A DNA stretch of 64,000 bases from the IMG/VR virus record IMGVR_UViG_3300012984_000010. One strand, 5' to 3'. The stretch comes from a virus. Lineage: Duplodnaviria > Caudoviricetes. Under the pieces are notes generated by a model, which was not told the origin of the DNA, did no database searches, and worked only from the letters and a program-made list of their open reading frames with translations. Made by a program: the position numbers and the translations under genes. Shown here one piece after another: positions 30,941 through 59,706 of the stretch. Position 1 is the stretch's first letter; every line of letters starts with the position of its first letter.

Positions 30941-30954
30941 ATAAGTAAAAAAGG
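30941..30954 (-). promoter_or_regulatory. Late-type motif CCTTTTTTACTTAT at the start of the head module
   Basis: Variant of the recurrent motif; TTTTTACTTAT also occurs at 17186-17196. Confidence 0.5.
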
Positions 30955-30961
30955 CTTATTT

Positions 30962-31005
30962 CTAGAGGTCTTAGGCTACAATCCTTAGTGTAGATCGACC
31001 TCTAG
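30962..31005 (-). terminator. Hairpin at the early/late module boundary (terminator-like)
   Basis: CTAGAGGTC/GACCTCTAG 9-bp stem with an inner CTACA/TGTAG stem; the T6 run is about 9 nt downstream, which is non-canonical. Confidence 0.45.
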
Positions 31006-31008
31006 GCC

Positions 31009-31662
31009 TCAAGTACATTCGTCGCCGCCCCGATCCTTCCATTGAGGTAACGACACTTCCCTACGTATGTTGAAATTCTGAGCGATGGCGCTGAATATTT
31101 TCTCGTATGGGCGATACTGTTCGTCCTTGTCGGCTGTCTCTTGCAAAGTCTTGACCGCCTTGAAGAAGCGATGGCGGACCCGCCCTTGAGTGAGACCTAG
31201 TTTGGACGCTACCTCTGATTGGCATGTGGACACCCACATACCGATCAGGATATCGATATCGATCTTCTGGGGGAAGATGGTCGCCAGGTTGGTCTCAAGG
31301 TCCTCTTTTGACACGGTTGGGATCGAGAGCAGGAATTTGAGACGCTTGATACCTCGGTCCAAACGATAACTGATAGCCGCCTGAGTGACCCCAAAGATGG
31401 CGGCAATATCTGCTTGACGCTTCTTTTGAATGAAATAGAGGTAGATCAGGTCCGCTTCTCGTTCTGGGATGCAGTCCAGCAGAGGGGAGATCCGACTCTC
31501 ATAGTCCCCATCCGACAAGTAATCGGACAACACATCCGCGCTTACATTGGTTACGAGATCTTCATCTATTTTCTCGTCCTCATTGTCGAACCTGGGGTCC
31601 TCAGATGAGAAACGATTGGCCAGCTCTGAAGGGTCGATGGAGATAACGTAACCATTACTCAT
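31009..31662 (-). CDS. Sigma-70 region-4-like protein with two HTH units
   Basis: IPEREADLIYLYF...QADIAAIFGVTQAAISYRL and CQSEVASKLGLTQGRVRHRF. Confidence 0.7.
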   Translation of the reverse strand: MSNGYVISIDPSELANRFSSEDPRFDNEDEKIDEDLVTNVSADVLSDYLSDGDYESRISPLLDCIPEREADLIYLYFIQKKRQADIAAIFGVTQAAISYRLDRGIKRLKFLLSIPTVSKEDLETNLATIFPQKIDIDILIGMWVSTCQSEVASKLGLTQGRVRHRFFKAVKTLQETADKDEQYRPYEKIFSAIAQNFNIRREVSLPQWKDRGGDECT

Positions 31663-31663: not shown

Positions 31664-33472
31664 TTACTCAGGTCTCCTGAAGAAGGTATTCAGCAGCTCG
31701 GGCTGGATATCGTAGTCCGCCAGAATGGCCTGCGCCACGTTGGGGTCCATATCTGTGGGGATCGATTCGATATCGACATCCACCAGAGACATGAGTTCCA
31801 CATTTATTCTAATTTGCGGTTCGAAGCTGCGCAACCTCTCATACTGACCTTTAGTCAAACCAGTGAGGCCTGACCGATAGACGGCATCCACAGACCCATG
31901 AGCTTGGATAAGCGCTTTCAGGACTTTCTTGGGTACACGCGGGACGCCCGGGATATTGTCAGAGTCGTCCCCGTAAAAGGCTCGGAGTTGAACCATCTTG
32001 GACGGCGCGACTCCGATAGTTTCTAGAACGGTGGTAGGGTCGAACAAGATCTCGTTGCGCGAGCCGACCGGCGGAATCAAAAGCGAAGTATCGTCATTGA
32101 CGAGTTGCAACAAATCTTTATCGGTAGAGAACATGACGTTCTTCTGCCGAGCAAGTTCACGCCTAGTCAGGGTGGCGATCACATCGTCCGCCTCCTCTTC
32201 CTTGTTCCAAGCCTGTCGGACACCCAACAATGGGAGGATCTTCTTCAGGACGGTCAGATCTGGAGGATTGGAGTTCCTTTGCGCCTTGTACTCAGAAAAA
32301 CGTGACTTGCGACGCTTCGAGCTGCCGTCCCAAGTTACGTAGAGAGCAGCATCAGGGTACCTCTTCTTGAGGGACCCTAGACTACGAAGAAATCCTACCA
32401 TAGCCCCTGTCGGACGTCCCTTACTGTCCGTAAGATTGGACAATCCAGGTGCGTAGGCACAACGGCACGCCAGATTGTGCCCATCCACGATCACATTTTC
32501 GACCATATCTTTTTCCTGCTTATGTGCCAAAGCCCTAGAAATACTGTCAACATCATCCCAAAGATTGCGAATCCTTTTCAGGATCCCGTCTATCTTGGTC
32601 AACTTGTCTAGCTTGGACTGCAGACTGTTGAATACAATATCACTGTAACGATCATTGTTGAACGCCACATAACTGTACAGAAGTCGGCCCCTAGATTCCC
32701 AATCCCGCATCTTCTTCAAGTGCTCTGTTTTCTCGCGGATTTGCGACAACATCTTTGAGAAAGCGGGGGTATCTTTCAGAAATAGCTGTAGATCGGAGAT
32801 CGCAGTTAGCTTGCGATACCAGATTTCCACATGAGCATAGGTTCGATACGTCTGGACCAAATCATCAAAAGGGGCGGTCCATCGTACTATAGGATAGGCT
32901 GCCATCGCCCAATCACGGAGTGCCGTTAGACGACTATTCTCATTCGATAACGGGGCTCTCTCTTCAACGACAAGGAAGCTCCTAGGAAGCGTCACCAAAC
33001 TCTGTTTGGATCGCAGATCGATCCAGACCTGTACCTTCCCTTCCTCGGGAATCTCCTCGATGACTTTGGCCCCCATGTTTTTATAGGGGCCGGAAGTGAT
33101 GCGGACCCTATCCCCAATACCGATCCCCTGATCTACCAGGAGTCGTATTTGCTCTTTCATTTTGTCTATAGCGGAATCTTCCACTGTGGACAATTTCCTA
33201 GCTCGACCCGTCATACCAGGCAGAGCAAGGACTGACTGGATGTATTTAGTGTTCTCTAGGCGAAAGTATTCCTGAGGAGCTCTGTCAAGCCGAACGAACA
33301 CATACCCTTCCATCAGTATGTGGACGGACCGCGCATCTGCTATTTGAGTGACAGCCGCTGGAACAAACACCTCGGCTCTCTTCAACGAACGGAGGATCGC
33401 CGATTTGATAATCTCAGGATCTTCCTGATCACCCCTAGAGGTGAGCTCCAATACGACCCACGACCCCATCAA
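31664..33472 (-). CDS. NusG (NGN+KOW) domain fused to a 5'-3' exonuclease/flap endonuclease
   Basis: N-terminus WVVL...VFVP...LMEGYVFV...IGDRVRITSGPY; C-terminus IVDGHN, TWDG, EADDVIAT, STDKDLLQL, GDDSDNIPGV. Confidence 0.85.
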   Translation of the reverse strand: MMGSWVVLELTSRGDQEDPEIIKSAILRSLKRAEVFVPAAVTQIADARSVHILMEGYVFVRLDRAPQEYFRLENTKYIQSVLALPGMTGRARKLSTVEDSAIDKMKEQIRLLVDQGIGIGDRVRITSGPYKNMGAKVIEEIPEEGKVQVWIDLRSKQSLVTLPRSFLVVEERAPLSNENSRLTALRDWAMAAYPIVRWTAPFDDLVQTYRTYAHVEIWYRKLTAISDLQLFLKDTPAFSKMLSQIREKTEHLKKMRDWESRGRLLYSYVAFNNDRYSDIVFNSLQSKLDKLTKIDGILKRIRNLWDDVDSISRALAHKQEKDMVENVIVDGHNLACRCAYAPGLSNLTDSKGRPTGAMVGFLRSLGSLKKRYPDAALYVTWDGSSKRRKSRFSEYKAQRNSNPPDLTVLKKILPLLGVRQAWNKEEEADDVIATLTRRELARQKNVMFSTDKDLLQLVNDDTSLLIPPVGSRNEILFDPTTVLETIGVAPSKMVQLRAFYGDDSDNIPGVPRVPKKVLKALIQAHGSVDAVYRSGLTGLTKGQYERLRSFEPQIRINVELMSLVDVDIESIPTDMDPNVAQAILADYDIQPELLNTFFRRPE

Positions 33473-34887
33473 GCCGCCCCTACGCCCAGTATTTTCAGAC
33501 GTTGTTCAAAGCTGATGCGCCACTCTTCTGCGGTTATCAAGTCGGCACGACCCTTAGGGGTGTCCTTGAAAAGGACTCGTGTATCGGCGTCGTGCGTCCC
33601 ACGAGGCATATCCTTCCGTACCGCCTTGTCATCCAAAGACGTAAGAGCCCGCGCATCGTCAGAACCCAAGTTACCCACCTTCCGATCTGAGGGGGGTGGG
33701 CTAGAAGGGCGTTTCGTCTCTGCAACCGGAGGGGTGGGCAGAACAACTTCCACCTTTGCGACAGGAGCTGCGGTTGGAGCGACTGTGGAGGCCGTTTCCT
33801 GTGCTGGAGATGCCTGAACCTGCACCAAGACTGTTTTGGTCGACGTATCTTTGGCTGGTGGCGTTCCAGACACACATGACATTACATCACATAGTAAACG
33901 GAGGCGGGTCGCCTTCGAGGTACCTAGGAAGTGCTCGGCCAGCTGCAACAGGCTATCCCCATATTGGAGTTGCAGCTTCTGGGCTAACGGTTTGTCGACG
34001 TAAGTATAATCCACGTACATGTTGTTAGCCATGCGATAGCTGGTCATGGCTGCCTCTGCCAAACCTTCGTATACTGCCTCAGGTCCAACCTGATCGCAAG
34101 TCATCTCTACGAGTTGAATAGCTGTAGAGGGAGTTCCTAACGAGAGTAAGATCTCATAATATTTCGAAACCACCGACAAATTGAGATACTCTCTCACTGA
34201 GGCGCTGGTTATTTCACCCAGTTGGGCAATCATCTCCAAGGTATTGATGATGTCGCGCACATGGCTGTGCGATGCGTCAATCACCGTCAGTACAGCATCT
34301 TCCTCAAACCCCACCCCTTCTTGGGTCAGAATCCAACACATCCTAGTGAGCAGATCCTCACGAGGGATGGAGCGAATCTTATATTCCTCACACCTAGATC
34401 GGATCGGACCTCTGATCTTTTCTGCCTCAGTTGTGCAAAAAATGCCGACAAATTTGGCTTCCTCGATGGGTTTTAGCAACACATCTTGGGAAGCGGCGCT
34501 CATCCGGTGCATTTCATCGAACAGGTAGATACGTTTTTCTGCACCTTGGATGGCGAAAGGAAGGTCTTTGACGATCTTCCTCATGTGATCGATTGTGCCG
34601 TTTGAAGCCGCGTCCGTCTCCGTAAATGCTTGGCTGGTGTCTGCGAAAACCTCTTTGCAGTTGTTGCAGACATTGCACGGCTCCCCATCCGATTGGAGAT
34701 CCTGGCAAAGCATCGCTCGGGCGAGGATACGGGCAAGGGTCGTTTTTCCTTGCCCGTGCCCGCCGCTAAAGATGTAGCTCGTGTCGAGAGCCGTACCTTT
34801 GACCAACCGCGCCTTGAGAACTAGGGCAGCACTTTCCTGGCCCAATACGTCGGAAAAACGTACTGGGCGGTACCGCTTGTCCCACAT
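33469..34887 (-). CDS. dnaX: DNA polymerase III clamp-loader subunit gamma/tau
   Basis: KRYRPVRFSDVLGQ, GGHGQGKTTLARI, EPCNVCNNC, LFDEMH, IRSRC. Confidence 0.92.
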   Translation of the reverse strand: MWDKRYRPVRFSDVLGQESAALVLKARLVKGTALDTSYIFSGGHGQGKTTLARILARAMLCQDLQSDGEPCNVCNNCKEVFADTSQAFTETDAASNGTIDHMRKIVKDLPFAIQGAEKRIYLFDEMHRMSAASQDVLLKPIEEAKFVGIFCTTEAEKIRGPIRSRCEEYKIRSIPREDLLTRMCWILTQEGVGFEEDAVLTVIDASHSHVRDIINTLEMIAQLGEITSASVREYLNLSVVSKYYEILLSLGTPSTAIQLVEMTCDQVGPEAVYEGLAEAAMTSYRMANNMYVDYTYVDKPLAQKLQLQYGDSLLQLAEHFLGTSKATRLRLLCDVMSCVSGTPPAKDTSTKTVLVQVQASPAQETASTVAPTAAPVAKVEVVLPTPPVAETKRPSSPPPSDRKVGNLGSDDARALTSLDDKAVRKDMPRGTHDADTRVLFKDTPKGRADLITAEEWRISFEQRLKILGVGAA

Positions 34888-45451: not shown

Positions 45452-46231
45452 TTAGAGATTATCGAAAAGGGACGAATAATCTTCGCCTTCAAGGAATTTG
45501 GCGATGGCTGCTTCGTCTGAGTTGGGCTCTGGATCAGCAGACACCACTACTGGTTGTGGCTTAGGAGTCGCGGTCTCCAACACTGGCTGAACGTCCTCTT
45601 CTTCATCAGTAGTCGCCTGTTCGTTGACCGCCGCTGAAGTTACCTCTAACAGGTTGGTCAACTCGTCATCATCAATAGTGAACCCGTTAGGCATTGTGGA
45701 ATGTGTCCCACCTTGAGGAGTTCTGTATTGTGACTTGCGCGAGGTTTCGGTCTCATCTCCGTAGAAAGAGCCAGTTCTGAGTTCCGCATCGATCAGGCCT
45801 TTCTGCATACGAATCGCACTTACGGTGTTCTCCAATTCTTTGTGTCGATGACGAACCGCCTTATCGACGAACCCCAACTCTTTGACTTGGTTCTTCAGCT
45901 TGACGATCTTTGCACGCTCTTCTCGAAGAATCAGGTTGATCATAGCCCTACGATCCTCAATGTTGGGGAGTCGTGTCACCCTGGCATCATCTGCCAACAG
46001 GCTGTCCGAGCTGATCGAATAGGCCGCCTCAGCCGCATCAAGCTCGGTCTCGATGGCGGACTTTTGACGATGCACCTCATGCACCATGAGACTGGTGGTG
46101 TTGAGCATCCCTCTGGTTTTGGAGATCAGATCCTGCAAGTAAGCTGGACCCATCGCCACGGGGTCTCTCGCCAGCTCAACCACTAGTGTGCCTAGTTGAT
46201 CGTAAATCTCCTCGATACGTGCTTGTTTCAT
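45452..46231 (-). CDS. Coiled-coil hypothetical protein with acidic tail
   Basis: Start moved to ATG 46231 (ATGA overlap with the helicase stop, SD GGAG). Confidence 0.6.
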   Translation of the reverse strand: MKQARIEEIYDQLGTLVVELARDPVAMGPAYLQDLISKTRGMLNTTSLMVHEVHRQKSAIETELDAAEAAYSISSDSLLADDARVTRLPNIEDRRAMINLILREERAKIVKLKNQVKELGFVDKAVRHRHKELENTVSAIRMQKGLIDAELRTGSFYGDETETSRKSQYRTPQGGTHSTMPNGFTIDDDELTNLLEVTSAAVNEQATTDEEEDVQPVLETATPKPQPVVVSADPEPNSDEAAIAKFLEGEDYSSLFDNL

Positions 46232-48426
46232 TGGTTTTCTCCGACAGGTACACTGACAGCCACCAGGTTGTTGGAGATGGCTTTGGAAAGAATGGTGTTG
46301 CGCCGCACAACCTTGTTGTTCTCGATCGCCTTCTGGACTGCGGTTTCCTCCCCAATCAACCACACTCGTTTCTTGGCTCTAGTGACGGCAGTATAGAGCA
46401 GATTGCGTTGAAGCATTCGGCCTTGGGTTTTGACGATCGGCATGATGATGGTGTCGAATTCCGACCCCTGACTCTTGTGGGCTGTAATCGCATAGGCCAA
46501 TCGAAGCTTGATTCCGGCCGTCGCCTCAGGGAAGTTGATGTCCTCCTCCATCTGCGCCCCCAAGCCGTGGATCTTCACCAACAGAGAGTCTCGGTAGACG
46601 TGGCGAAGCTTGCCCACATCACCGTTGTAGACCTTCAGCTTGTAGTCATTCTGAACCACCATGAGGCGATCCCCCTCCCGAAAGCGCTGCTTGCCGTTGG
46701 ACCACTCCTTCGGACCCTCAGGATTGAGAGCATCCCGCAACAACTCGTTGAGATTGTCCACCCCCACCACGCCATCATATTTGGGGGACAGAACTTGGAA
46801 ATTGGCATCTCGGGATTTCAGTTTCACTGCCATTTCCACAATGAGGGCAGCGATCTTGGCTTCATCACTGATGCGGACGAACCGAAATTCAGATTCCTTG
46901 TCCTGAATCGATAGTTCGGGCATCTTCCCAGAGTTGATCTTGTGGGAATTGATCACGATCTCGCCCTGGGCCGCCTGACGGAAGATCTCAGTCAATCTGA
47001 CGTGCGGCATTGCCTTGCAATCGATCAGTTCGCGGAGAACGTTCCCTGGACCAACCGAGGGGAGCTGTGCATCGTCCCCTACGAGAATGATCCTCGTATC
47101 CGATCGGAGGGCACTAAGTAGGCGGTACAGCAGCTCCTGGTCCACCATACTGGCTTCATCCAAAATGACCGCTTCTGTGATGAAATGGTTGTTCTCATTA
47201 TGCCCCCAATTGATCCCGTCGAACCGGAGCGCTCGATGAACCGTATGGGCCTCATGCCCCGTAACCGACGCTAGGCGCTTGGCTGCGATGCCGGTAGGGG
47301 CCATGAGTCTAAAGCTGATCTTGGCGTCCTCCAATAGCCTCACAAGGGCTCGAAGGACGGTTGTTTTACCCGTACCAGGCAGGCCTGTAATGGCCAGGGC
47401 CCGATTCTGGGTCAACAGCTCAACTGCCGTCCTCTGGGCGTCCGAGAGCCGAAGCTTATGGGACCGTTCGTATTCCTGGATGAAGGTAGTAGTGTCGACC
47501 TGCAGGACGGGAGAGGGGTTCAGTCGGGAGGCAATGTAGGCAGCGCTCTTCCGTTCAAAGTCGAATAGTTGAGGCAAGTATAGCCCAGACTCCACATCCA
47601 GCATGGCCGACTTCTGCTTGACCAACTGAACCACTGCCGCGTCATAAGCTTTGGCGGGCTCGGCCAGAGACAGGATGAGGTTGTCCTTCTGAGCCAGTTC
47701 GGAGATGTGCTGCCCCAACTCCCCTCTCCGAAGATAGAGGTGTCCCTGTTTGGATGCTTCCTGAAGGGCCCAAAGCACCATCCCCTGTATGCGTCTAGGA
47801 TCGTTGTGCTTGCAACCCAGATGAATAGCCAGACGATCGATCTTGGAGAAAGAGAACCCCAAGATCTCCATCAGTCGGTAGGGATTGTCCGCAATGATCT
47901 GTGGGGCTTCCGATCCAAAGCGGATCAAGGCAGCCTGTACCTCCATCGCCCCCAACCCGCCTTCCCGTAACAGTACCGACAAGTCTCTGGTAGCTATGAC
48001 GGTGCCCCAGCTCAATACCGCCTTTGCCAAAGCCTCCTTTGAGACTTTCGGATATTTAGTACCTAGGACAACATCTGGCAGTTTGGTCAACTGTTCGAAG
48101 GTGTCTAGCCCGTGAGCATTGACCAGGGCATCCACCAAGGTCAAGTCAGAGAACTCCTTCACACACACGTTCAGGAATTCGACCACCTCTTTAGGTGAAC
48201 TGGCCCACGGCTCCCAAGTCTGAATCAGGAATTCTTTCCCGTACTTCTGGGCGAACTGCCACTTACCCAACAACTTGATCGATATCCCTGGTTTGACCTG
48301 CAACAGCCCATACAGGTTTCCCTTGACTTTGACGTTTCGATGCCCCTCAGCATCAAAGTTGAGGATATAGTACCCATCCTGAGTGTAAACAATCGAATAC
48401 ACTCGTCCAACCAGGATGTCGTTCAT
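46228..48426 (-). CDS. RecD2-like SF1B helicase
   Basis: GLPGTGKTT, DEASM, GDDAQLPSVGPG, LTEIFRQ, AYAITAHKSQGSEF, LYTAVTRAK. Confidence 0.93.
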   Translation of the reverse strand: MNDILVGRVYSIVYTQDGYYILNFDAEGHRNVKVKGNLYGLLQVKPGISIKLLGKWQFAQKYGKEFLIQTWEPWASSPKEVVEFLNVCVKEFSDLTLVDALVNAHGLDTFEQLTKLPDVVLGTKYPKVSKEALAKAVLSWGTVIATRDLSVLLREGGLGAMEVQAALIRFGSEAPQIIADNPYRLMEILGFSFSKIDRLAIHLGCKHNDPRRIQGMVLWALQEASKQGHLYLRRGELGQHISELAQKDNLILSLAEPAKAYDAAVVQLVKQKSAMLDVESGLYLPQLFDFERKSAAYIASRLNPSPVLQVDTTTFIQEYERSHKLRLSDAQRTAVELLTQNRALAITGLPGTGKTTVLRALVRLLEDAKISFRLMAPTGIAAKRLASVTGHEAHTVHRALRFDGINWGHNENNHFITEAVILDEASMVDQELLYRLLSALRSDTRIILVGDDAQLPSVGPGNVLRELIDCKAMPHVRLTEIFRQAAQGEIVINSHKINSGKMPELSIQDKESEFRFVRISDEAKIAALIVEMAVKLKSRDANFQVLSPKYDGVVGVDNLNELLRDALNPEGPKEWSNGKQRFREGDRLMVVQNDYKLKVYNGDVGKLRHVYRDSLLVKIHGLGAQMEEDINFPEATAGIKLRLAYAITAHKSQGSEFDTIIMPIVKTQGRMLQRNLLYTAVTRAKKRVWLIGEETAVQKAIENNKVVRRNTILSKAISNNLVAVSVPVGENQ

Positions 48427-49295
48427 ACCGCCCCAGGCTTCTGCATGTCCCACTCACCAGGGATTTCCTTCCGGTGTTGGACCCACCCTCGGAAGTTGCC
48501 AAGGAACGGGACCTTCCCTTTGCCAATCTCACACTGCCGTGTGTAGTCCCACTTTTCATCTCCCGTCATCGGGCGGGCCGAGTGCTCGAACGGACTCATG
48601 TGACCCCCAGACAAGAGGCGGTTGTACAGCGTGTAGTCCGCCTCTGGGTCTCGGATCCCATCTTGGGTCAGATAGCTGACCCTAGCACAACGGGCAGTAG
48701 ACAGCTTGACCAGTTGATTAAGTGTTAGTTCTCCGAACTCCTCAGGGCGAATGTACGGCAGATGCCACTCACCAGGACCCAACACCTTGGGAGTGCTTCC
48801 TTGGTAGTCATCTTCCATCATGCCGGCGATTCGATCGATCTCCGGCTGAGCCATGAGATTGTGCCGGAGATGGAAGTAATTGTCCCATTCAGTCGCGGTG
48901 CAAACGACAGTGTGCCACATGAACGGCTCCAACAAGCGGTTCGTGATTTGCTTGTGGACGCCTATTTTGAGCAGCATTCCGACATGCTTGACGGCACTGT
49001 CTCGGGCTAGGAGCCATTCCTCTACGGCCAAAGCCTGCTCCTCTGGAGACAGCTCCTCCATGGCCTGCATGCCGCTTTGATTCTTCCCCCAATGGATAGG
49101 AATGAAGGGATCGTTCAGAACCTTTGCTAGTTGCTTCTCAATCGGGATGGCTCGACTAGAGGCCGAGTTCCTGGAGAACACTCGATGAGTGTTAAACTCC
49201 GCCAACACCATTCTTGGGAAGGTTATTTCGAACGTTGTGAGGCGAATGTTCTCAATACTGCACAGGGAATCTGCAATTATTTTACAAGCGTACAT
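48423..49295 (-). CDS. thyX: Flavin-dependent thymidylate synthase (phage type)
   Basis: THRVFSRNSASSRAIP motif and HMSPFEH; start likely 49295. Confidence 0.88.
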   Translation of the reverse strand: MYACKIIADSLCSIENIRLTTFEITFPRMVLAEFNTHRVFSRNSASSRAIPIEKQLAKVLNDPFIPIHWGKNQSGMQAMEELSPEEQALAVEEWLLARDSAVKHVGMLLKIGVHKQITNRLLEPFMWHTVVCTATEWDNYFHLRHNLMAQPEIDRIAGMMEDDYQGSTPKVLGPGEWHLPYIRPEEFGELTLNQLVKLSTARCARVSYLTQDGIRDPEADYTLYNRLLSGGHMSPFEHSARPMTGDEKWDYTRQCEIGKGKVPFLGNFRGWVQHRKEIPGEWDMQKPGAV

Positions 49296-49305
49296 AGGTT
49301 CCTTT

Positions 49306-51216
49306 TCACACTCCACACATAGACACAAAGGCCTCTTCCGAGATACACGTAGTTCCGTTCTTTCTGGCCGCCTCAGCCTTCGAGGAAGTGGAGGCTGGGT
49401 CGGCCAGAACCAGATAGGTCAGACCCTTGCCGACCGAATTCTTGACCATACCGCCAGCAGCTTCCGCCATCTGCTCAAGCTCAGCTCGTTTTCTTGTGGA
49501 CTTGCCCGTGAAGCACACCGACTTGCCTGTCAGGGCTCCTTGAGCTCTAGCGGCAATCTTGACCCCCGTAGACAGAATGTCGTCGACAAGAGTCCGATGG
49601 TGCCTCATCCAAAGGGCCAATGCTTCTGCCCGCTTCGGACCCATACCTGGAATGATCTGGAGTTGGTCTATCGAAGCTTTGGCAATCTTGTCCACCGAGT
49701 CCAAGCCGGCGTCTACCAAAAGGCGGATGGTAGACGTGGCACACAAGGGGATGCTGAGCCCGCCCAACAGCTTCTCCAACGGCATCTCTGCCGCTCCCCA
49801 GAGCGTCTTTAGGACATTGGCAGCCGACTTGTCACCCATCCGGTCCAAGGCGGCCACTTGCTCTTGTTTAAGCCTGTAGAGGTCCGCCACGCTAGAGACA
49901 TGGCCGGCGTCTACCAATTTCTGGATCACAGATTCACCCCATTCAAGGATCCCCAGCTCTGCCACCCATTGTTTGATGCGACCAACCACTTGGGCCGGAC
50001 AGCCGGACACATTGGAACAGATGATGTACTCACCATCTCTGGCCGTTGGGTCAGAGCATACAGGACATTGGGTCGGGGGTTTGGCGACCGTTCCCGTAGA
50101 AGCTACGATTTGATGAACACGAGGGATCACATCATTGGCTCGAATGACCAAGACCTTGGAGCCAATGTCGACCCCCAAGTCTTCAATGTACTTCAAGTTG
50201 TACAGACTTGCTCTGGAGGTCTCAGCTCCAATGAGATTGACGGTATCGAAGACCGCCACAGGGGTGATACGCCCAATGCTGCCAACCTGCCAAATGATGT
50301 CCCGAATCGTGGTCTCCTTGGCAATGGGAGTGAATTTGTAAGCCACAGCCCCCTGAGGGCAACCGTTCGTCTCCCCTAGCGAATACTGGTAGGGCAGGTC
50401 GTTCAAACGGACAACCAAACCATCAATCTCGTAATCCAAAGAGTCTCTGAACCCTGCCTGATAGCGGGCCCATTCCGCATTGATGGCAGCCGCATCAAGC
50501 ACAACCGAGAAGTTGGGTATAGTGAAGCCCAATTGAGCCATATGTAGGAATTGCTCGTATTCTGTCTTGGAATCGTAGCCTTCTTGGATCTGGTAAGTGA
50601 CCACCGTTAGGTGCTCACAACCCTTACCGTCAGAGCGCTTGGAAACCCCTGAGGCCATGTTCCGGGGGTTGGCGTGACCTGGGAAGTGTTCAAGGAAGTC
50701 CGCCTTGAACATGATGATCTCGCCTCTAAAAGTGGCGTTCAGATCAGTTGGTAGCGCCGTTGGCAGACCCTTCATCCGCAAGACGTTCGGAGTGATGTTT
50801 TCCCCCGTTACCCCGTCTCCTCTGGTCGAGGCCTGGACCAACAGGCCTTTTTCGTAACGAAGATTGATCGAGATCCCGTCGAGCTTCTCTGTGATCAGAT
50901 ACCCCTCAAGAGAAGTACGGGACAGCTTCGCCACCCACTCGGTCAACTGCTCTGGGATCTGGACCTTATCTAGGGAACCCATCAAGGTAGAATGGCGGAC
51001 TTTTGGCCATTCTGAGGAATCCGATACCGGAGCTCCGATACCGAAGACTTCCTTACTGGTTTCGGCGAACTCCTTGGAGAGTTCTACAGCCTCATCCCGC
51101 CAAGCATCGAATACTTCATCCGATACTGTGGGGGTTCCGTTGATGTAGTCGATTCGAGCTTGGGCGAGTTTTTTCGTTAGCTCGCCCAAGCGGCCTAGTT
51201 TACTGTTGGTATCCAC
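49306..51216 (-). CDS. ligA: NAD-dependent DNA ligase with BRCT domain
   Basis: EKLDG, TRGDG, RGE, DGLV, GRITPV, CPVC..C..C zinc finger, HhH repeats, BRCT. Confidence 0.96.
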   Translation of the reverse strand: MDTNSKLGRLGELTKKLAQARIDYINGTPTVSDEVFDAWRDEAVELSKEFAETSKEVFGIGAPVSDSSEWPKVRHSTLMGSLDKVQIPEQLTEWVAKLSRTSLEGYLITEKLDGISINLRYEKGLLVQASTRGDGVTGENITPNVLRMKGLPTALPTDLNATFRGEIIMFKADFLEHFPGHANPRNMASGVSKRSDGKGCEHLTVVTYQIQEGYDSKTEYEQFLHMAQLGFTIPNFSVVLDAAAINAEWARYQAGFRDSLDYEIDGLVVRLNDLPYQYSLGETNGCPQGAVAYKFTPIAKETTIRDIIWQVGSIGRITPVAVFDTVNLIGAETSRASLYNLKYIEDLGVDIGSKVLVIRANDVIPRVHQIVASTGTVAKPPTQCPVCSDPTARDGEYIICSNVSGCPAQVVGRIKQWVAELGILEWGESVIQKLVDAGHVSSVADLYRLKQEQVAALDRMGDKSAANVLKTLWGAAEMPLEKLLGGLSIPLCATSTIRLLVDAGLDSVDKIAKASIDQLQIIPGMGPKRAEALALWMRHHRTLVDDILSTGVKIAARAQGALTGKSVCFTGKSTRKRAELEQMAEAAGGMVKNSVGKGLTYLVLADPASTSSKAEAARKNGTTCISEEAFVSMCGV

Positions 51217-51224
51217 CAACAGTC

Positions 51225-51232
51225 TTACACCG
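51225..51232 (-). promoter_or_regulatory. CGGTGTAA motif upstream of ligA
   Basis: TA at -11/-10 relative to GTG 51216. Confidence 0.6.
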
Positions 51233-51240
51233 AAGCAGGG

Positions 51241-51525
51241 CTATTTACGTACGATATTGAAGGGCACAGTGGGTAGTTGTTCGGGCGTGATACCGAATAC
51301 CTGGCCCCCTCCAGCGTCCTCAACCATCTTGGCCAATTCGGCCAGTGTCTCAAACGAAGCCAGTGTCAGTCGAACCTCTTGCCCAACGTATTGTTCAAGT
51401 AGCTCCTGAAGGTCAGTCGTGTGAGCTTTACCGTCAACTCCTACAGAGATAACCTGCAGGCGTTCCGTCATAGGGTTCAATTCCACCACACCTTCAAGGA
51501 TGTGGCCCATAGCATTGGGGCTCAT
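51241..51525 (-). CDS. Hypothetical protein
   Basis: Likely start ATG 51525 just after the nrdA stop. Confidence 0.55.
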   Translation of the reverse strand: MSPNAMGHILEGVVELNPMTERLQVISVGVDGKAHTTDLQELLEQYVGQEVRLTLASFETLAELAKMVEDAGGGQVFGITPEQLPTVPFNIVRK

Positions 51526-51529
51526 TGGA

Positions 51530-53233
51530 TCATCCTTCACAAGCAACGCATTCGTCTTTCGACCGTGAAGCCAAATCACCCTTGATCACCCCGTCAGTGC
51601 GTAGGTAATACAACGACTTCATGCCGCTTTCCCAGGCCGCCACATGAACCTCATGCAGGTACTTCGGATCTGAGTTGGAGCCGAAGAACAAGTTGATGGA
51701 CTGTCCCTGGTCTACCCATTTCTGTCGCTGAGCAGCCTGCTTGACGATTGCGTGTTGGTTGATCTCCCTAGCGGTCAGGAAGACGGATTTCTCCTGGTCA
51801 GTCAAACAGTCCAAGTGCTGAACGCTGCCAGAGGCTTCGTTAATGGACTTCCAAGTCTCGGCGTCGTTCTTGCCCTTGGTTTCCAAAAGTCGTTCCAGGA
51901 CACCGTTCTTTCGAATGAAAGTCCCCTTGGCAGATTTCTGGAAGTAGATGTTGGCAGAAAGAGGCTCCACACCTGCCGAGTGTCCCCCAGAGATGGTGGA
52001 ATTGGAGACAGTCGGAGCAACAGCCATCAAGTGAGTGTTTCTCCGGCCATGACCCCGACACCACTCCGGCTCGCCCAATTCCTCGGCCAATATTTTGGTC
52101 TCAGCTTCAGCCTGGGTCTTGATGGTGCGGAATATTTCCGCGTTCAGGGTCATGCTGCCATAACTATCGAAGGGGTAGGACATTTCCTGAAGCAAGGTAT
52201 GCCAGCCCAGAACACCGATACCCAAAGCCCGCCCTTTCAAGGCACTAGCTCTGGACGGCTCCAGACCTTTCACCCCGTCCGATTTCCGAACGTATTCCTC
52301 AATCACAGCGTCAAGGAAGCGGACCGTGGTGGCCACCACATCACTATCTTTCCACTCCCCCCACTTGACCAAATTCAGGCTGGACAGGCAGCAGACAAAG
52401 CTGTGATCTGGATCCGTGTGAAGGAATATTTCAGTGCAGATGTTTGAGGTCTTTACGCTGAGGCCGTTGTCCGTGTAGCACTTCGGGTTCTGCCGATTAA
52501 CGTTGTCGGTGAAGAACATGTAAGGCTCGCCTGTCTCCACGCGAGCCTTGAGTATTTCTACCCAAAGGTTCCGTTTGGTCCCGTCTCCTGCCAACATCGA
52601 CTTCATCCAGTCGTCTGTGATACAGATTCCGTGGTTGAGGTTGAGGCATCTGCGGTTCATATCCCCGACAGGGCGACGGATATTGAGGAATTCGTCGATG
52701 TCGCCGTGTTCGATGGGGAGGTACACAGCCGAGGCACCACGACGTGTACTACCTTGGTTGACGCTCAACGTGGTGGTGTCGTAGACCTTAGCCCAAGGGA
52801 TCACCCCCTCAGACTTGCCGTTCCCGTTGATCGAAGCACCACGGCCCCGGATGTCGCCCAAATAGATCCCCACCCCAGCGCCGTTCTTGGACAGCATTGC
52901 TAGTTCGTGGTTCTTCTGGAAGATGCTCGAAACACTGTCGTCGATATGGATCGAGTTACACGAAATCGGTAACCCTCTGGTAGTACCCATATTGCTCAGC
53001 ACCGGAGAAGCAGGGCAAAGCCAATTACGCCACATTGCTTCAAAGAACTTGCCCTCCCACTTATCTGCGTCTTGGTAGTAGCTGGCAGCCGCTTTAGCTA
53101 CACGACGGTACATGGTCTTGGGGGTTTCCTCTGGAAGCAAATAGCCCCCTTTCAAAGTGCGGAAACCCTCATCACCCATCCACTCAGGAGCTTCCCCATC
53201 AGCCTTCAGTTGTTCGAAAGTATTTTCCATCAT
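51530..53233 (-). CDS. nrdA: Ribonucleotide reductase class Ia alpha subunit (no ATP cone)
   Basis: PISCNS, GAGVG, RRGA, SNICTEI, VCCLSS, APTVSNS, DQGQS, C-terminal CxxC. Confidence 0.95.
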   Translation of the reverse strand: MMENTFEQLKADGEAPEWMGDEGFRTLKGGYLLPEETPKTMYRRVAKAAASYYQDADKWEGKFFEAMWRNWLCPASPVLSNMGTTRGLPISCNSIHIDDSVSSIFQKNHELAMLSKNGAGVGIYLGDIRGRGASINGNGKSEGVIPWAKVYDTTTLSVNQGSTRRGASAVYLPIEHGDIDEFLNIRRPVGDMNRRCLNLNHGICITDDWMKSMLAGDGTKRNLWVEILKARVETGEPYMFFTDNVNRQNPKCYTDNGLSVKTSNICTEIFLHTDPDHSFVCCLSSLNLVKWGEWKDSDVVATTVRFLDAVIEEYVRKSDGVKGLEPSRASALKGRALGIGVLGWHTLLQEMSYPFDSYGSMTLNAEIFRTIKTQAEAETKILAEELGEPEWCRGHGRRNTHLMAVAPTVSNSTISGGHSAGVEPLSANIYFQKSAKGTFIRKNGVLERLLETKGKNDAETWKSINEASGSVQHLDCLTDQEKSVFLTAREINQHAIVKQAAQRQKWVDQGQSINLFFGSNSDPKYLHEVHVAAWESGMKSLYYLRTDGVIKGDLASRSKDECVACEG

Positions 53234-54192
53234 GTGTCCCAAATCTTAGAGAAATCCATAGAGCCTTTGGCGTAGTCGGTCGTCCGTTGAGCAAAGAAGT
53301 CCGTATGCGCCACGCCTGCACTCATGACATCGAACCAAGCCATCCGCTCCAAAGCTTCCTTGTCCAGGTTCTTCCAACGCTTCGCCAACCCCAAATCATT
53401 GAGTTTGGTGTTGGTCCGGAAACGGATGAAGTTCTTCATGTCTTTCACGTCCAACCCTTCCAACTGAGTATCCTCGAAGGCTTTCTCGATAAAATCGTCT
53501 TCCAGATCGACGGTAATCTTGGCGGCTTCGTAGATCTCCTCCTTCAGCTTGTCGGTAAGGATGCCTGGGTACTCTGAAACTAGAGTCCGGAACAGCCAGC
53601 AGCCGGCGTCAGAGTGGAGACTCTCGTCCTTGATCGAGAAGGCGATGATCTGACCTAACCCCTTCATCTTGTTGAAGCGGCTGAAGTTCAGCAAGATGGC
53701 GAAGCTAGAGAACAGATTAACACCTTCATTGAAGGCCGAGAAGATGGCCAATGATCTGGCTATTTCTTCCTTGGTCTTACCCTTGGTCTCAATCAGGCGA
53801 TCTATTTTCGCCTTCGCGGTGGGCTCGTAAAGAAAGGCCTCGAAGTCCTCCAGACCCAAAGATTGGTTCAAGTAGGCGTATGAGACCGCATGAATCGACT
53901 CGAAGCTGGCGAAAGTGGCCGCCATCATCTGTATTTCTGGCTTCTTGAACCACTTGCCGACCATCTGACTCCAGTACTCTTGGATGAACACTTCAGACTG
54001 AGTGAAGCCTTTCAGGATGTGTCCAACCGCATGGCGTTCGCCATCGGACAGGTTCATCTTCCAGTCATTGATATCCGAGGCCATCGACACCTCAGTGTGT
54101 AACCAATGGGACTGTTGTTGAAGCTCCCAATACGTGTATGCTTTCTGGTATTCGAATGGAGCGTAGGTGGCTCGTGGGGTGAGTAGCGTCAT
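53230..54192 (-). CDS. nrdB: Ribonucleotide reductase class Ia beta subunit
   Basis: WLHTEV, ESIH..SY, EGVNLFSSF, DESLH. Confidence 0.95.
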   Translation of the reverse strand: MTLLTPRATYAPFEYQKAYTYWELQQQSHWLHTEVSMASDINDWKMNLSDGERHAVGHILKGFTQSEVFIQEYWSQMVGKWFKKPEIQMMAATFASFESIHAVSYAYLNQSLGLEDFEAFLYEPTAKAKIDRLIETKGKTKEEIARSLAIFSAFNEGVNLFSSFAILLNFSRFNKMKGLGQIIAFSIKDESLHSDAGCWLFRTLVSEYPGILTDKLKEEIYEAAKITVDLEDDFIEKAFEDTQLEGLDVKDMKNFIRFRTNTKLNDLGLAKRWKNLDKEALERMAWFDVMSAGVAHTDFFAQRTTDYAKGSMDFSKIWDT

Positions 54193-54195
54193 CGG

Positions 54196-55158
54196 TCACT
54201 GATCCTTTACAATGGAAAGCACGGTGGTCTCAACCAGAGTCCTCTTGGATCTGATGGGCCCTCTCATCTGTGAATCTAATCTACATAGTTGGTTGAAATG
54301 CTTTCTCAACTTTGCCAGGGAGTACTTGCGAGCCAGCGGGATCAAGTATTCCTGACAACGCCGTTCTTTCATGTCGAATCGAATGGCTATGATGGACGCA
54401 GAATCCCCCCGTTCCAACATCTGCCTAGTGACCAACACTTGTTCCACACGCTTCAACAGGGCGGCCACAAGGGGGATGTTGGCGTCGTCACCCATCTTCT
54501 CGTACAGGAAGGATAGATCGCGCATCGCAGCTTTGGAATTCCTGCTGATGACGTGGTCTGCTACCTGGAATGGCTCCAACGGCTTGTCTGGAGCCACTAT
54601 TTGCACAACATGCTTCTTGGTTACGAATCCGTCTTTCACCAGATATCGGAGCTTACCTAGTTCATTGTAGATCCCAAACAGGTTGTCTCCCAAGAAATTG
54701 ATCAAAGCATCGATGGCTTCTTCATCCAGATTCAACAAGAGTCTCTGAGCTTCATCTACGATTCGTTTTCGATACCCCTTGATGTCCCATGGAGGCAACT
54801 TCATGTGAGACGAGACGGTCGCCAGTTTAGCTACCGCCGTCCAAGATGCGGGTAATTTCGCCTTGTGGATAACTGCTGTCACTACCGACAGGGAAGAACC
54901 GTCCTCTTCAATCGAGGTCTTCAATAAGCCCTCCAGTTTGACCTCATCCGCCTCATCAATCACGATGTGTCGGCCCACTCCGAACATGGGTTGAGTCTCG
55001 CGCAAGGAAACTATTTGGGATTCCTTGGTCTCGCCACCTTCAAGGAAGCTGGGTTCTCTGCCTTTGAGAGCTTCCTTGTGCGCAGTTACCGCCCGATTCA
55101 GCAGCACTTCCTCATCACCACAAAATACATAGAGGGGGCTTAAGCCTTTTCCAGCCAT
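54196..55158 (-). CDS. holA: DNA polymerase III delta subunit
   Basis: PLYVFCGDEEVL, QPMFG, EAIDAL..LG.NL....ELGKL, FQVAD. Confidence 0.8.
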   Translation of the reverse strand: MAGKGLSPLYVFCGDEEVLLNRAVTAHKEALKGREPSFLEGGETKESQIVSLRETQPMFGVGRHIVIDEADEVKLEGLLKTSIEEDGSSLSVVTAVIHKAKLPASWTAVAKLATVSSHMKLPPWDIKGYRKRIVDEAQRLLLNLDEEAIDALINFLGDNLFGIYNELGKLRYLVKDGFVTKKHVVQIVAPDKPLEPFQVADHVISRNSKAAMRDLSFLYEKMGDDANIPLVAALLKRVEQVLVTRQMLERGDSASIIAIRFDMKERRCQEYLIPLARKYSLAKLRKHFNQLCRLDSQMRGPIRSKRTLVETTVLSIVKDQ

Positions 55159-55159
55159 A

Positions 55160-56119
55160 TCAACGCTCCGAGATAGCCACGCAGAAGCAATTCTTGATCT
55201 GGTACGCCAGATTGGGTTTACTCGGCAGGCGCTCTTGCACTACATTGATTTCTCGACGCAAGGCAGCCAAACGAATCGGTCCTAGTCTTTCCCTCAACAG
55301 TGTCAATTCCTCGTGAAGATCCATGTTGGCTATACGTTCGGGGGCGTAAGATATTAGGTAAAGGTCGGTAACGATACGTTCTAGAAACTGAAAAGCGAGG
55401 ATCAATTCGGCCGATTTCTTCTCGGTTGCCAACTCGTCAATGGCTGAGAACAGAGTAGACAGGTCACCCGTCACGGCTGTTTTGAGAAGAGCCATTACAC
55501 GATTACGAAAAATTATCCGATTCGATCCTAAGTACTGCACTGCGCGGCCAACGGAGCCCTCTGAAAGGCGAGTGTAGACAGTCGCCTTGGTTGAATCGTC
55601 CGTCAGCTGGCTCAATGCGGCGCTAATAAATGGTTCACTCAGTCGATTGTACCGGACTACCCCACATCGAGAGATTATCGTTGGGATCACTTTTTCCAAA
55701 GAATTAGAGATCAGCAAGAACCTCGTATTTTTTGGAGGTTCTTCCAAAACCTTCAGTATGGCGTTGGCCGCCCCCTCGGACAACCGATCAGCACCGTCGA
55801 CAACTATGTAACGACGTCGCGCAACTGAAGGGTGGAGGGTAGCTTCCGTCAATGCTTCGCGCATCTCATCCACCCCAATGTCTTTCCCCAAATCTGGGGT
55901 CAAGATAATGAGGTCCGGATGGGTTCCACGATCCACTTGCAGACACTGGTTGTCGCCAGGGTCCCCGCCAGAGAAGTCTTCTTTGATGGCAGCCATCACT
56001 GAGAAGCGTTTACCTACTCCTTCAGGGCCTACCAACAGCAGGGGTATCTTACATTCGTTCGCCACTACCCTTTTGAGGTAGGCAACGCCCTTATCCTGTT
56101 CCCGAACCTCGCTCAACAA
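55160..56119 (-). CDS. holB: DNA polymerase III delta-prime subunit
   Basis: GPEGVGK, THPD, IGVDEMR, ANAILKVLEEPP, IPTIISRC. Confidence 0.9.
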   Translation of the reverse strand: MLSEVREQDKGVAYLKRVVANECKIPLLLVGPEGVGKRFSVMAAIKEDFSGGDPGDNQCLQVDRGTHPDLIILTPDLGKDIGVDEMREALTEATLHPSVARRRYIVVDGADRLSEGAANAILKVLEEPPKNTRFLLISNSLEKVIPTIISRCGVVRYNRLSEPFISAALSQLTDDSTKATVYTRLSEGSVGRAVQYLGSNRIIFRNRVMALLKTAVTGDLSTLFSAIDELATEKKSAELILAFQFLERIVTDLYLISYAPERIANMDLHEELTLLRERLGPIRLAALRREINVVQERLPSKPNLAYQIKNCFCVAISER

Positions 56120-57084: not shown

Positions 57085-57087
57085 GGC

Positions 57088-57303: not shown

Positions 57304-57307
57304 CTGT

Positions 57308-57697: not shown

Positions 57698-57699
57698 TC

Positions 57700-59706
<2,007 letters not shown>

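What the first reader, a model, noticed from the sequence alone, without database searches (positions are those of the whole stretch)
31664..33472. NusG (NGN-KOW) fused in frame to a 5'-3' exonuclease/flap endonuclease
Seen: one uninterrupted 602-aa ORF with NGN and KOW motifs (first ~170 aa), a ~150-aa helical linker, then a full Pol I-type 5'-3' nuclease with conserved acidic motifs. An internal AGGA-7nt-ATG at 32506 could also yield the free nuclease. Established: NusG-family proteins bind the RNA polymerase clamp; 5' nucleases remove RNA primers and flaps. I do not know of a described fusion of the two. Inference: an RNAP-tethered nuclease for torpedo-like termination, R-loop or replication-transcription conflict clearing, or replication-coupled late activation. 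It is encoded next to the sigma4-like gene at the early/late boundary.
Basis: partly seen in the sequence, partly recalled or inferred. Interest (0 to 1): 0.8.

Follow-up and report, generated by a model that had tools for sequence, protein, structure and literature searches.

The report
Huge-phage NusG fused to flap nuclease
A family of very large soil and freshwater phages joins a copy of the universal transcription factor NusG to their only DNA-flap nuclease in one protein, which probably puts a replication/repair nuclease on the host's RNA polymerase; I found no paper describing it.

Summary
The gene lies on the minus strand (31664-33472; likely start ATG 33469, 601 aa).

- **Residues 1-171:** match and fold as NusG NGN + KOW.
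- **Residues 176-321:** a four-helix arm.
- **Residues 326-600:** a Pol I-type 5' nuclease with every acidic motif invariant.

It is not an artefact. More than 120 full-length homologues (45-73% identity) exist, on phage contigs up to about 475 kb.

In five near-complete relatives (407-452 kb) it is single copy and is the only FEN. Those genomes show no recognisable RNA polymerase.

The block clamp loader > NusG-like > FEN > sigma4-like > structural genes/terminase is conserved in all 47 phage loci that carry both halves.

Deep-branching relatives encode NusG-like and FEN as adjacent separate genes without the arm. Two lineages split again after the arm. One 485-kb GenBank phage has NusG-like plus sigma4 and no FEN.

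A complex model with E. coli beta' clamp helices as a stand-in passed its controls. Its interface falls on the family's invariant NGN residues.

Best reading (0.45): a phage NusG paralogue docks on host RNA polymerase and holds the flap nuclease where transcription meets replication. This function is inferred, not shown.

First readers of this scan noted the same fusion in several other genomes; none of those notes was followed up.

The parts
31664..33472 (-). Whole NusG-like/FEN fusion ORF (602 aa from TTG 33472; likely 601 aa from ATG 33469; stop TAA 31664-31666)
33134..33472 (-). NGN domain (residues 1-113). Family-invariant L53, G56, Y57, F59 and L82 lie here.
   Evidence: Pfam NusG; PDB profile hit; fold matches to NusG/RfaH/Spt5 NGN; modelled beta' clamp-helix interface
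32960..33127 (-). KOW domain (residues 116-171)
   Evidence: Pfam KOW in 25 of 27 family members; VIA-align Z 11.5, rmsd 1.1 A to T. maritima NusG KOW
32510..32947 (-). Four-helix arm or linker (residues 176-321). The first and last helices are partly conserved. The middle is variable, and the arm is 96-181 aa long in relatives.
   Evidence: AF2 models; alignment A1; length range. No fold match found, but this part was barely tested.
32504..32517 (-). Internal AGGA (32514-32517), 7 nt, then ATG (32504-32506; Met323) at the linker/FEN boundary. Candidate internal start for a free nuclease.
   Evidence: comparison across relatives
31667..32497 (-). Pol I-type 5' nuclease / flap endonuclease (residues 326-602). 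D330, D382, E426, E427, D429, D430, D451, D453, D502 and D505 are invariant or nearly so. Arch residues are Y395, K396 and R399.
   Evidence: Pfam; alignment A1; alignment to M. smegmatis Pol I and Taq 5' nuclease
33469..34887 (-). Upstream gene: clamp-loader tau/gamma-like AAA+ subunit. Its stop overlaps the fusion's ATG.
   Evidence: Pfam DNA_pol3_delta2 E 3e-22; PHROG clamp loader E 2e-50
31009..31662 (-). Downstream gene: sigma-70 region-4-like protein (two r4-type stretches, no region 2 found). It starts 1 nt after the fusion's stop.
   Evidence: Pfam Sigma70_r4 E 2.7e-15; PHROG sigma factor; sequence
30946..31010 (-). Terminator-like hairpin plus U-run directly after the sigma4-like gene. 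It is the likely end of the transcription unit that contains the fusion.
   Evidence: RNA fold -23.5 kcal/mol, z -2.4; sequence

Best explanation
The gene encodes a single-copy core protein of a clade of roughly 400-480-kb phages found in soil and other environmental metagenomes. It has three parts.

1. A phage-specific NusG paralogue (NGN + KOW).
2. A four-helix arm of 100-180 aa.
3. The phage's only Pol I-type 5' flap nuclease.

Most likely mechanism:
- The NGN docks on the beta' clamp helices of the HOST RNA polymerase, because these phages show no polymerase of their own. It acts like other specialised NusG paralogues, keeping the polymerase processive on the very long one-strand gene arrays.
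- The arm holds the flap nuclease beside the elongation complex. RNA:DNA hybrids and 5' flaps that arise where transcription and replication share a template can then be removed on the spot. Examples are R-loops behind the polymerase, or transcripts left as primers after co-directional collisions.
- The same nuclease also matures Okazaki fragments, either as the whole protein or as a free form made from the internal start or from a split gene.

Shown: domain identities, intact catalytic residues, conservation, phage-only distribution, synteny, and the path from adjacent genes to fusion.

Inferred: RNA polymerase binding (from homology plus a model), nuclease activity, and the biological role.
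For: Domain identity:
- NGN+KOW is supported by Pfam, PHROG, a PDB profile and fold comparison.
- The FEN has all acidic and arch residues invariant or nearly so across 29 homologues. It aligns to the Taq and M. smegmatis Pol I 5' nucleases.

Conservation and distribution:
- More than 120 full-length homologues at 45-73% identity.
- 45 IMG/VR loci carry both halves, on contigs up to 452 kb.
- In the representative library, 439 proteins (one per 50%-identity cluster) carry this NusG-like module.
- Among 185,579 species genomes there are only three hits that span both halves. All are on MAG contigs that look like phage DNA.
- There is one NusG-like module and one FEN per near-complete genome.
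- No RNAP beta or beta' was found in five 407-452-kb relatives.

RNA polymerase docking:
- Complex model of NGN 1-115 with E. coli beta' 240-340: score 0.63, best control 0.41. That mark was reached by 51 of 78 solved complexes and 2 of 108 mismatched pairs.
- The runs agree in 100% of contacts and the partner pLDDT is at least 77.
- The interface joins beta' 278-294 to NGN 7, 9, 53-57, 82, 95-97, 101, 105 and 108. It includes the family-invariant L53, G56, Y57 and L82.
- NusG-RNAP complexes are already solved, so this pass shows likeness rather than binding. E. coli is a stand-in host.

Link to transcription:
- The same NusG-like module (37% identity, E 4e-30) is fused to a sigma-70 r2+r4 factor in another contig.
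- It always sits beside a sigma4-like gene.

Link to replication:
- The gene follows the clamp loader, primase, RecA, SbcD-like nuclease, RecD2 and ligase genes.

Gene orientation:
- All long ORFs in the 64-kb window are on one strand.
Against: - No experiment exists and the host is unknown.
- The covalent tether is not essential. Deep relatives have separate adjacent genes without the arm, and two lineages split again after it.
- GenBank phage LR745208.1 keeps NusG-like plus sigma4 with no FEN anywhere in its record. The NusG-like factor therefore works without a nuclease.
- As the only FEN in the genome, its main job may simply be lagging-strand maturation.
- The control in which the NGN was kept but beta' was replaced still scored 0.41.
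- The Pfam NusG score sits on the threshold.
Confidence: 0.45

Rival explanations
1. Two independent functions in one polypeptide. The NusG-like half is a phage elongation or antitermination factor that works with the sigma4-like neighbour. The FEN half is an ordinary replicative primer-removal nuclease. The fusion is a tolerated by-product of two neighbouring, translationally coupled genes and has no mechanistic meaning.
For: - Separate adjacent genes occupy the deepest branches.
- The fused form split again at least twice.
- LR745208.1 has NusG-like plus sigma4 and no FEN.
- A start-capable codon lies at the domain boundary in most members.
- The FEN is the only one in the genome.
Against: - The fused state persists across deep divergence (32-100% identity) in 42 of 52 loci.
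- The fusion came with the gain of a 100-180-aa helical arm whose first and last helices are conserved.
- After re-splitting, the arm stays with the NusG-like half and the two genes still overlap.
- L011, L013 and L022 have no start codon at the boundary, so only the fused form is made there.
Confidence: 0.25
2. A replication-coupled late-transcription coupler of the T4 gp45/gp33/gp55 kind. The FEN domain recognises nicks, flaps or a loaded sliding clamp on replicating DNA. The NGN occupies the beta' clamp helices, the site used by sigma region 2 and by T4 gp55. The sigma4-like neighbour takes the beta-flap. Together they switch on the downstream structural genes.
For: - The conserved order is clamp loader > NusG-like > FEN > sigma4-like > structural genes and terminase.
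- The sigma4-like protein has no detectable region 2.
- A terminator-like hairpin and a module boundary follow directly.
- A sigma/NusG-like fusion exists elsewhere.
- The FEN ends in a conserved hydrophobic tail, L-L-x-x-F-F.
Against: - No phage sliding clamp was found with Pfam models in five near-complete relatives.
- The FEN catalytic residues are strictly conserved, which a pure adaptor would not need.
- No late-promoter motif was looked for.
- The tail motif lies in a part that also aligns to stand-alone phage FENs.
Confidence: 0.12
3. A torpedo-type terminator. The tethered nuclease degrades the nascent RNA 5'-3' until it dislodges RNA polymerase, as Rat1/Xrn2, RNase J1 or archaeal FttA-Spt5 do.
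For: - A NusG-family factor that holds a nuclease at the elongation complex has a precedent. Spt5 bridges FttA and the elongation complex (PMC11616081).
- The arm is long enough to span the polymerase surface.
Against: - The nuclease belongs to the Pol I/FEN family (PF02739 + PF01367), not XRN or beta-CASP.
- From general knowledge, these enzymes act on flaps and on duplex or hybrid 5' ends, not processively on single-stranded RNA.
- It is the only FEN in a genome that needs one for replication.
Confidence: 0.06
4. An assembly or gene-calling artefact that joins two genes.
For: None found.
Against: - More than 120 homologues with the same full-length architecture come from JGI, ENA, NCBI and Logan assemblies.
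- 42 of 52 fetched loci are fused.
- Contigs assembled separately from three soil runs span the gene with no differences or gaps. These runs may be the source samples.
Confidence: 0.01

Closest known systems
Specialised NusG paralogues (RfaH, LoaP, UpxY, ActX/TaA)
   Same: - NGN + KOW architecture and fold.
- Encoded on horizontally mobile DNA, beside or within the long transcription units it presumably serves.
- Single copy, in addition to the host's own NusG.
- The conserved GY-x-F strand lies in the modelled beta' clamp-helix interface.
   Different: - It carries a 100-180-aa helical arm and a complete nuclease after the KOW; none of the named paralogues has an enzymatic domain.
- No recruitment signal of the ops type was sought.
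- The KOW is predicted as a beta-barrel, not an RfaH-type helical hairpin.
Archaeal FttA (aCPSF1) held at the elongation complex by Spt5 (PMC11616081), and eukaryotic Rat1/Xrn2 with Spt5
   Same: A NusG/Spt5-family factor physically places a nuclease at the transcribing polymerase.
   Different: - There the link is non-covalent, and the nuclease is a beta-CASP or XRN ribonuclease acting on single-stranded nascent RNA.
- Here the link is covalent in most members, and the nuclease is a DNA-structure-specific Pol I-type FEN.
Pol I 5' nuclease domain and stand-alone phage FENs (SPO1 gp32.85, T5 FEN, T4 RNase H, bacterial ExoIX/FenA)
   Same: - The C-terminal half is 30-37% identical to these over 200-275 residues.
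- It has all metal-binding acidic residues and the arch residues.
- It lies among replication genes.
   Different: - It is fused downstream of a transcription-factor module rather than upstream of a polymerase or standing alone.
- It is the only FEN in these genomes.
T4 late-transcription machinery (gp45 clamp, gp33, gp55, clamp loader gp44/62)
   Same: - Genes for a clamp loader, a protein predicted to occupy the beta' clamp helices, and a beta-flap/sigma4-type protein sit together at the border of the late genes.
- This suggests coupling of transcription to replicating DNA.
   Different: - There is no sequence relationship to gp33 or gp55.
- No phage clamp was found.
- The coupling is conjecture.

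Membership tests
NusG/Spt5 family | NGN alpha/beta fold at the N-terminus | tested here: met
   - Foldseek: the best 27 PDB matches are all NusG, RfaH or Spt5, E down to 3e-8.
- VIA-align against the RfaH NGN: Z 9.6, rmsd 3.3 A, 97 of 101 residues.
NusG/Spt5 family | KOW beta-barrel following the NGN | tested here: met
   - VIA-align Z 11.5, rmsd 1.1 A over 56 residues to the T. maritima NusG KOW.
- The Pfam KOW model matches 25 of 27 members.
NusG/Spt5 family | Sequence-profile membership (Pfam PF02357 at or above its cut-off) | tested here: met
   - 22.2 bits, equal to the cut-off, for the whole protein.
- 25.1 bits for residues 1-180, and 23 of 27 members match.
- The family profile hits NusG 2lq8_A at E 2.4e-9 over NGN+KOW.
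The match is marginal for the single sequence and clear for the profile.
NusG/Spt5 family | NGN binds the beta' clamp helices of RNA polymerase | tested here: inconclusive
   - The complex model passes: 0.63 against a best control of 0.41. That mark was reached by 51 of 78 solved complexes and 2 of 108 mismatched pairs.
- Contacts agree 100% between runs, and the partner pLDDT is at least 77.
- The interface lies at beta' 278-294 and the invariant NGN residues.
- Similar complexes are already solved and E. coli is a stand-in host, so this shows likeness, not binding.
NusG/Spt5 family | Alters elongation, pausing or termination | not testable with these tools
   Needs in vitro transcription.
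Specialised NusG paralogues (RfaH class) | Extra copy on mobile DNA, linked to the operons it serves | tested here: met
   - Phage-only distribution.
- One copy per near-complete genome.
- Embedded in a conserved one-strand gene array.
Specialised NusG paralogues (RfaH class) | Sequence-specific recruitment signal (ops-like), or an autoinhibited helical KOW | not tested
   No signal was searched for. AF2 predicts a beta-barrel KOW, which does not exclude fold switching.
Pol I-type 5' nuclease / FEN (PF02739 + PF01367) | PIN-like N-terminal domain plus H3TH/SAM-fold domain | tested here: met
   - Pfam E 7e-31 and 2e-12.
- Hits to the Pol I and Taq 5' nuclease chains at E 2e-26 and 2e-25.
Pol I-type 5' nuclease / FEN (PF02739 + PF01367) | Full set of metal-binding acidic residues and arch Y/K/R | tested here: met
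   - D330, E426, E427, D429, D430, D451, D453, D502 and D505 are invariant.
- D382 is at least 90% conserved.
- Y395 and R399 are invariant, and K396 is at least 90% conserved, across 29 homologues.
- These residues align to the matching Taq motifs.
Pol I-type 5' nuclease / FEN (PF02739 + PF01367) | Flap endonuclease / 5'-3' exonuclease activity | not testable with these tools
   Needs enzyme assays.
Torpedo termination nucleases (XRN, beta-CASP/RNase J/FttA) | XRN or metallo-beta-lactamase/beta-CASP catalytic domain acting on single-stranded RNA | tested here: not met
   The only nuclease domains found are 5_3_exonuc_N and 5_3_exonuc.
T4-type clamp-coupled late transcription | Phage sliding clamp, and clamp-binding tails on the RNAP-bound factors | tested here: inconclusive
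   - The Pfam beta-clamp models PF00712 and PF02768 find nothing in five near-complete relatives.
- gp45 and PCNA models were not run, and the host clamp could be used instead.
- The hydrophobic C-terminal tail was seen but not tested.

The most novel reading that the evidence does not exclude
This would be the first NusG-family factor that carries its own enzyme. A flap/RNA:DNA-hybrid nuclease rides on the host RNA polymerase, either to resolve encounters between transcription and replication on a 400-480-kb phage chromosome, or to couple nicked, replicating DNA to late transcription together with the neighbouring sigma4-like protein.
Probability: 0.35. Interest if true: 0.8.

Novelty: new variant of a known kind. 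Interest (0 to 1): 0.66.

Why it matters
NusG/Spt5 is the only transcription factor conserved in all life, and it is known as a platform that recruits partners non-covalently. A conserved phage lineage that wires a DNA-structure nuclease directly to it would show a new way to manage R-loops or replication-transcription encounters. It would also give an easily expressed, single-chain reagent to test how a nuclease acts at an elongation complex.

The fusion marks a large uncultured clade of huge phages, together with its conserved partners (clamp loader, sigma4-like protein). It points to their transcription strategy: host polymerase plus phage sigma-like and NusG-like factors.

Tried and rejected
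- **Plus-strand reading:** the given coordinates translated on the plus strand are full of stops; the gene is on the minus strand.
- **GenBank phages:** no near-identical DNA and no match that spans both halves. Only LR745208.1 holds the NusG-like part.
- **Closest cultured phage by terminase:** Tunturiibacter phage Tunturi_5 (28% identity) has neither the NusG-like module nor a FEN.
- **T7-type RNA polymerase search (PF00940):** nothing rang, but nothing rang in the controls either, so it is uninformative.
- **Divergent phage polymerases:** very divergent phiKZ-type polymerases could escape PF00562 and PF00623.
- **Beta-clamp models:** found nothing.
- **Linker fold:** no match among the rows listed, but that part was barely tested because the KOW filled the lists.
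- **Host assignment:** failed. The three MAG labels that carry the gene pair disagree (Lysinibacter, Paceibacterota, Methylobacter) and are probably mis-binned phage contigs.
- **Expression:** no RNA holder listed among the sequencing runs. The laid contigs cannot show starts or expression.
- **Promoter/terminator consensus scan:** no more sites than in shuffled sequence.
- **Programmed frameshift in split forms:** considered and judged unlikely. The shifts differ in direction, and the second ORF has its own start, with an ATGA overlap in L038.
- **Literature:** eight full-text searches and two NusG papers gave no description of a NusG-nuclease fusion. The library does not hold most subscription journals.
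Full report
**1. What is there**

The coordinates hold one uninterrupted ORF, on the minus strand; the plus-strand reading is full of stops. From TTG 33472 it is 602 aa. The next codon, ATG 33469, overlaps the TGA of the upstream gene by one base and gives the 601-aa product that public gene calls use. The stop is TAA at 31664-31666. The next gene starts one base later.

**2. Domain identity**

Nuclease half:
- Pfam finds 5_3_exonuc_N at 327-486 (E 7e-31) and 5_3_exonuc at 488-570 (E 2e-12).

NusG-like half:
- For the single sequence the match is marginal. Pfam NusG scores 22.2 bits, exactly the cut-off. KOW scores 16 bits.
- PHROG 6386 'transcription antiterminator' matches at E 2e-10.
- With family information the assignment is firm. 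A profile of residues 1-180 from 27 homologues hits NusG structures over both NGN and KOW (2lq8_A, E 2.4e-9).
- 23 and 25 of the 27 members match Pfam NusG and KOW respectively.
- The AlphaFold2 model of residues 1-322 has pLDDT 85. Its best 27 Foldseek PDB matches are all NusG, RfaH or Spt5.
- VIA-align gives KOW Z 11.5, rmsd 1.1 A over 56 residues. It gives NGN against RfaH Z 9.6, rmsd 3.3 A over 97 of 101 residues.

Linker:
- Residues 176-321 are four long helices.
- The first and last helices carry conserved positions. The middle is variable in sequence and length. The arm is 96-181 aa long in relatives.

Catalytic residues of the nuclease:
- The acidic motifs are invariant or nearly so in 29 homologues: D330, D382, E426/E427, D429/D430, D451/D453 and D502/D505. 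So are the arch residues Y395, K396 and R399.
- All of them align to the 5' nucleases of M. smegmatis Pol I and Taq polymerase.
- The enzyme therefore looks active.

**3. Real, conserved and phage-only**

- The large protein collection returns more than 120 cluster representatives of about 600-650 aa. They are 45-73% identical over 97-100% of the query and come from JGI, ENA, NCBI and Logan assemblies, on contigs up to 475 kb.
- JGI's pipeline already labels some of them '5'-3' exonuclease/transcription antitermination factor NusG'.
- IMG/VR holds 47 loci with both halves, on contigs up to 452 kb.
- The window's own record is a 142-kb virus fragment, 30% complete.
- Separately assembled contigs of three soil runs span the gene without a difference. 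These runs may be the source samples.
- Among one genome for each of 185,579 prokaryote species, only three hits span both halves. All are on MAG contigs with inconsistent labels. Every other hit is an ordinary cellular Pol I nuclease.
- Five near-complete relatives were examined (407-452 kb; two have terminal repeats and are rated 100% complete). Each has exactly one NusG-like module and exactly one FEN domain, namely this protein.

**4. Context**

Upstream, on the same strand:
- NAD-ligase, RecD2 helicase and RecA.
- An SbcCD-like pair and a PD-(D/E)XK nuclease.
- A Toprim primase and a phage metallopeptidase.
- A tau/gamma-like clamp-loader subunit.
- Clamp-loader delta and delta'-like subunits, ribonucleotide reductase, ThyX and GroEL lie further up.

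Downstream:
- A sigma-70 region-4-like protein without detectable region 2.
- A terminator-like hairpin with a U-run.
- Three conserved unknown genes, then large terminase and portal.

This 20-kb order, from RecA to terminase, is kept in all 47 IMG/VR loci and in a Logan contig at 54% identity.

**5. Evolution of the architecture**

- Of 52 loci, 42 are fused (counting L045, which the script mislabelled). Three are split after the arm into two overlapping ORFs: L038, with an ATGA overlap, plus L039 and L042. Seven encode a stand-alone NGN-KOW of about 170 aa without any arm, followed at once by a separate FEN gene.
- I built a maximum-likelihood tree of the concatenated NGN-KOW and FEN parts, rooted at the midpoint only. 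The armless separate forms lie on the deepest branches. The split-after-arm forms nest at two places inside the fused crown.
- The simplest history is adjacent genes first, then fusion together with gain of the arm, then at least two secondary fissions.
- The representative library agrees. It shows three length classes for proteins that carry this NusG-like module: about 600, 285-400 and 160-210 aa.
- GenBank LR745208.1 is an uncultured 485-kb phage whose terminase is 44% identical. It has clamp loader > stand-alone NusG-like > sigma4-like, and no FEN anywhere in the record.
- The NusG-like/sigma4 pair is therefore older than the nuclease at this site, and it works without it.
- In a different contig the same NusG-like module (37% identity, E 4e-30) is fused to the C-terminus of a sigma factor with regions 2 and 4. 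This ties the module to RNA polymerase independently.

**6. Which polymerase?**

- No Pfam match to RNAP beta or beta' exists in the five near-complete relatives. The T7-type search was uninformative.
- The likely target is therefore the host enzyme.
- I modelled NGN 1-115 with E. coli beta' 240-340. The complex scored 0.63 against a best control of 0.41. That mark was reached by 51 of 78 solved complexes and 2 of 108 mismatched pairs.
- All three runs share 100% of contacts, and the partner pLDDT is at least 77.
- The interface joins the clamp-helix tip (beta' 278-294) to NGN residues 7, 9, 53-57, 82, 95-97, 101, 105 and 108. It includes the invariant L53, G56, Y57 and L82.
- NusG-RNAP complexes have been solved, and E. 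coli is only a stand-in. The pass shows that the canonical surface is retained, not that binding occurs.

**7. Internal start**

- AGGA, 7 nt, then ATG (Met323) is present.
- Most relatives have ATG, GTG or TTG at or within about 12 codons before the first FEN strand. In L038 the separate FEN gene starts at exactly this position.
- It is not universal. L011 has GTC, L013 has GTT, and L022 has no candidate.
- The upstream codons are purine-rich simply because they encode K, R, E and G.
- A free nuclease from an internal start is plausible but not shown.

**8. Mechanism**

My best reading (0.45) has three steps.
- The NGN-KOW part is a phage-specific NusG paralogue on host RNA polymerase. It serves the very long one-strand gene arrays.
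- The arm keeps the phage's only flap nuclease next to the elongation complex. There it can remove RNA:DNA hybrids and flaps made where replication and transcription share the template.
- The same enzyme matures Okazaki fragments.

Rivals:
- Two independent functions joined by a tolerated fusion of neighbours (0.25).
- A T4-like coupling of replicating DNA to late transcription, together with the sigma4-like neighbour (0.12).
- A torpedo terminator (0.06). This is disfavoured because the nuclease is not of the XRN or beta-CASP type.
- An artefact (0.01).

**9. Comparison and novelty**

- The nearest functional precedent is archaeal Spt5 bridging the ribonuclease FttA to the elongation complex (PMC11616081). 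There the link is non-covalent and the nuclease belongs to a different family.
- The nearest relatives by sequence are the specialised NusG paralogues for the N-terminal half, and stand-alone phage FENs and Pol I for the C-terminal half.
- I found no paper that describes a NusG-nuclease fusion, or a NusG-like factor of huge phages. The NusG review and the NusG fold-switching survey do not mention one.
- I rate it a new variant of a known kind.
- First readers of this scan noted the same fusion in several other genomes. None of those notes had been followed up.

Noticed in passing
P0184 (locus L143:3612-5237): A 541-aa protein joins a sigma-70 factor (region 2 at 51-113, region 4 at 215-263) to the same phage NusG-like NGN-KOW module (327-488). 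That module is 37% identical to the window's, E 4e-30. Sigma region 2 and the NGN use the same beta' clamp-helix site, so this looks like a built-in initiation-to-elongation hand-over.
   Followed up: partly
L054 (GenBank LR745208.1, 414362-426865): An uncultured 485-kb phage has clamp loader > stand-alone NusG-like (207 aa) > sigma4-like, with no FEN between them and none anywhere in the record.
   Followed up: yes
window 30946-31010 (-): A terminator-like hairpin (-23.5 kcal/mol, z -2.4) with a U-run lies directly after the sigma4-like gene. It marks the end of the replication/transcription-factor unit, just before the conserved unknown genes and the terminase.
   Followed up: partly
window 33469-34887, 54196-55158, 55160-56119 (-): The phage encodes a bacterial-type clamp-loader set (tau/gamma-like, delta and delta'-like). 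No beta-clamp was found with Pfam models in five near-complete relatives, so it may load the host clamp or a very divergent one.
   Followed up: partly
L015, L017, L018, L028 (clamp loader); L003, L006, L007, L013, L015, L017 (terminase): The tblastn matches to the clamp-loader and large-terminase genes are interrupted by gaps of about 1.1-1.3 kb in several relatives. This suggests inteins, introns or homing-endonuclease insertions.
   Followed up: no
L139:2856-4004: An RRXRR-domain (HNH-like) gene is inserted between the clamp loader and the stand-alone NusG-like gene. This lies on a 154-kb contig where NusG-like (171 aa) and FEN (277 aa) are separate and abutting.
   Followed up: no
P0193, P0197, P0208, P0265: NusG-like NGN-KOW proteins of 387-406 aa carry C-terminal extensions of about 200-240 aa with no Pfam match. 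This phage NusG-like module may carry other cargo domains besides the FEN.
   Followed up: no
window 46228-60282 (-): The window also encodes RecD2-type helicase, ThyX, NAD-dependent ligase with BRCT, both ribonucleotide reductase subunits, a GroEL-type chaperonin and an Rv2179c-like 3'-5' exoribonuclease, all on one strand.
   Followed up: no
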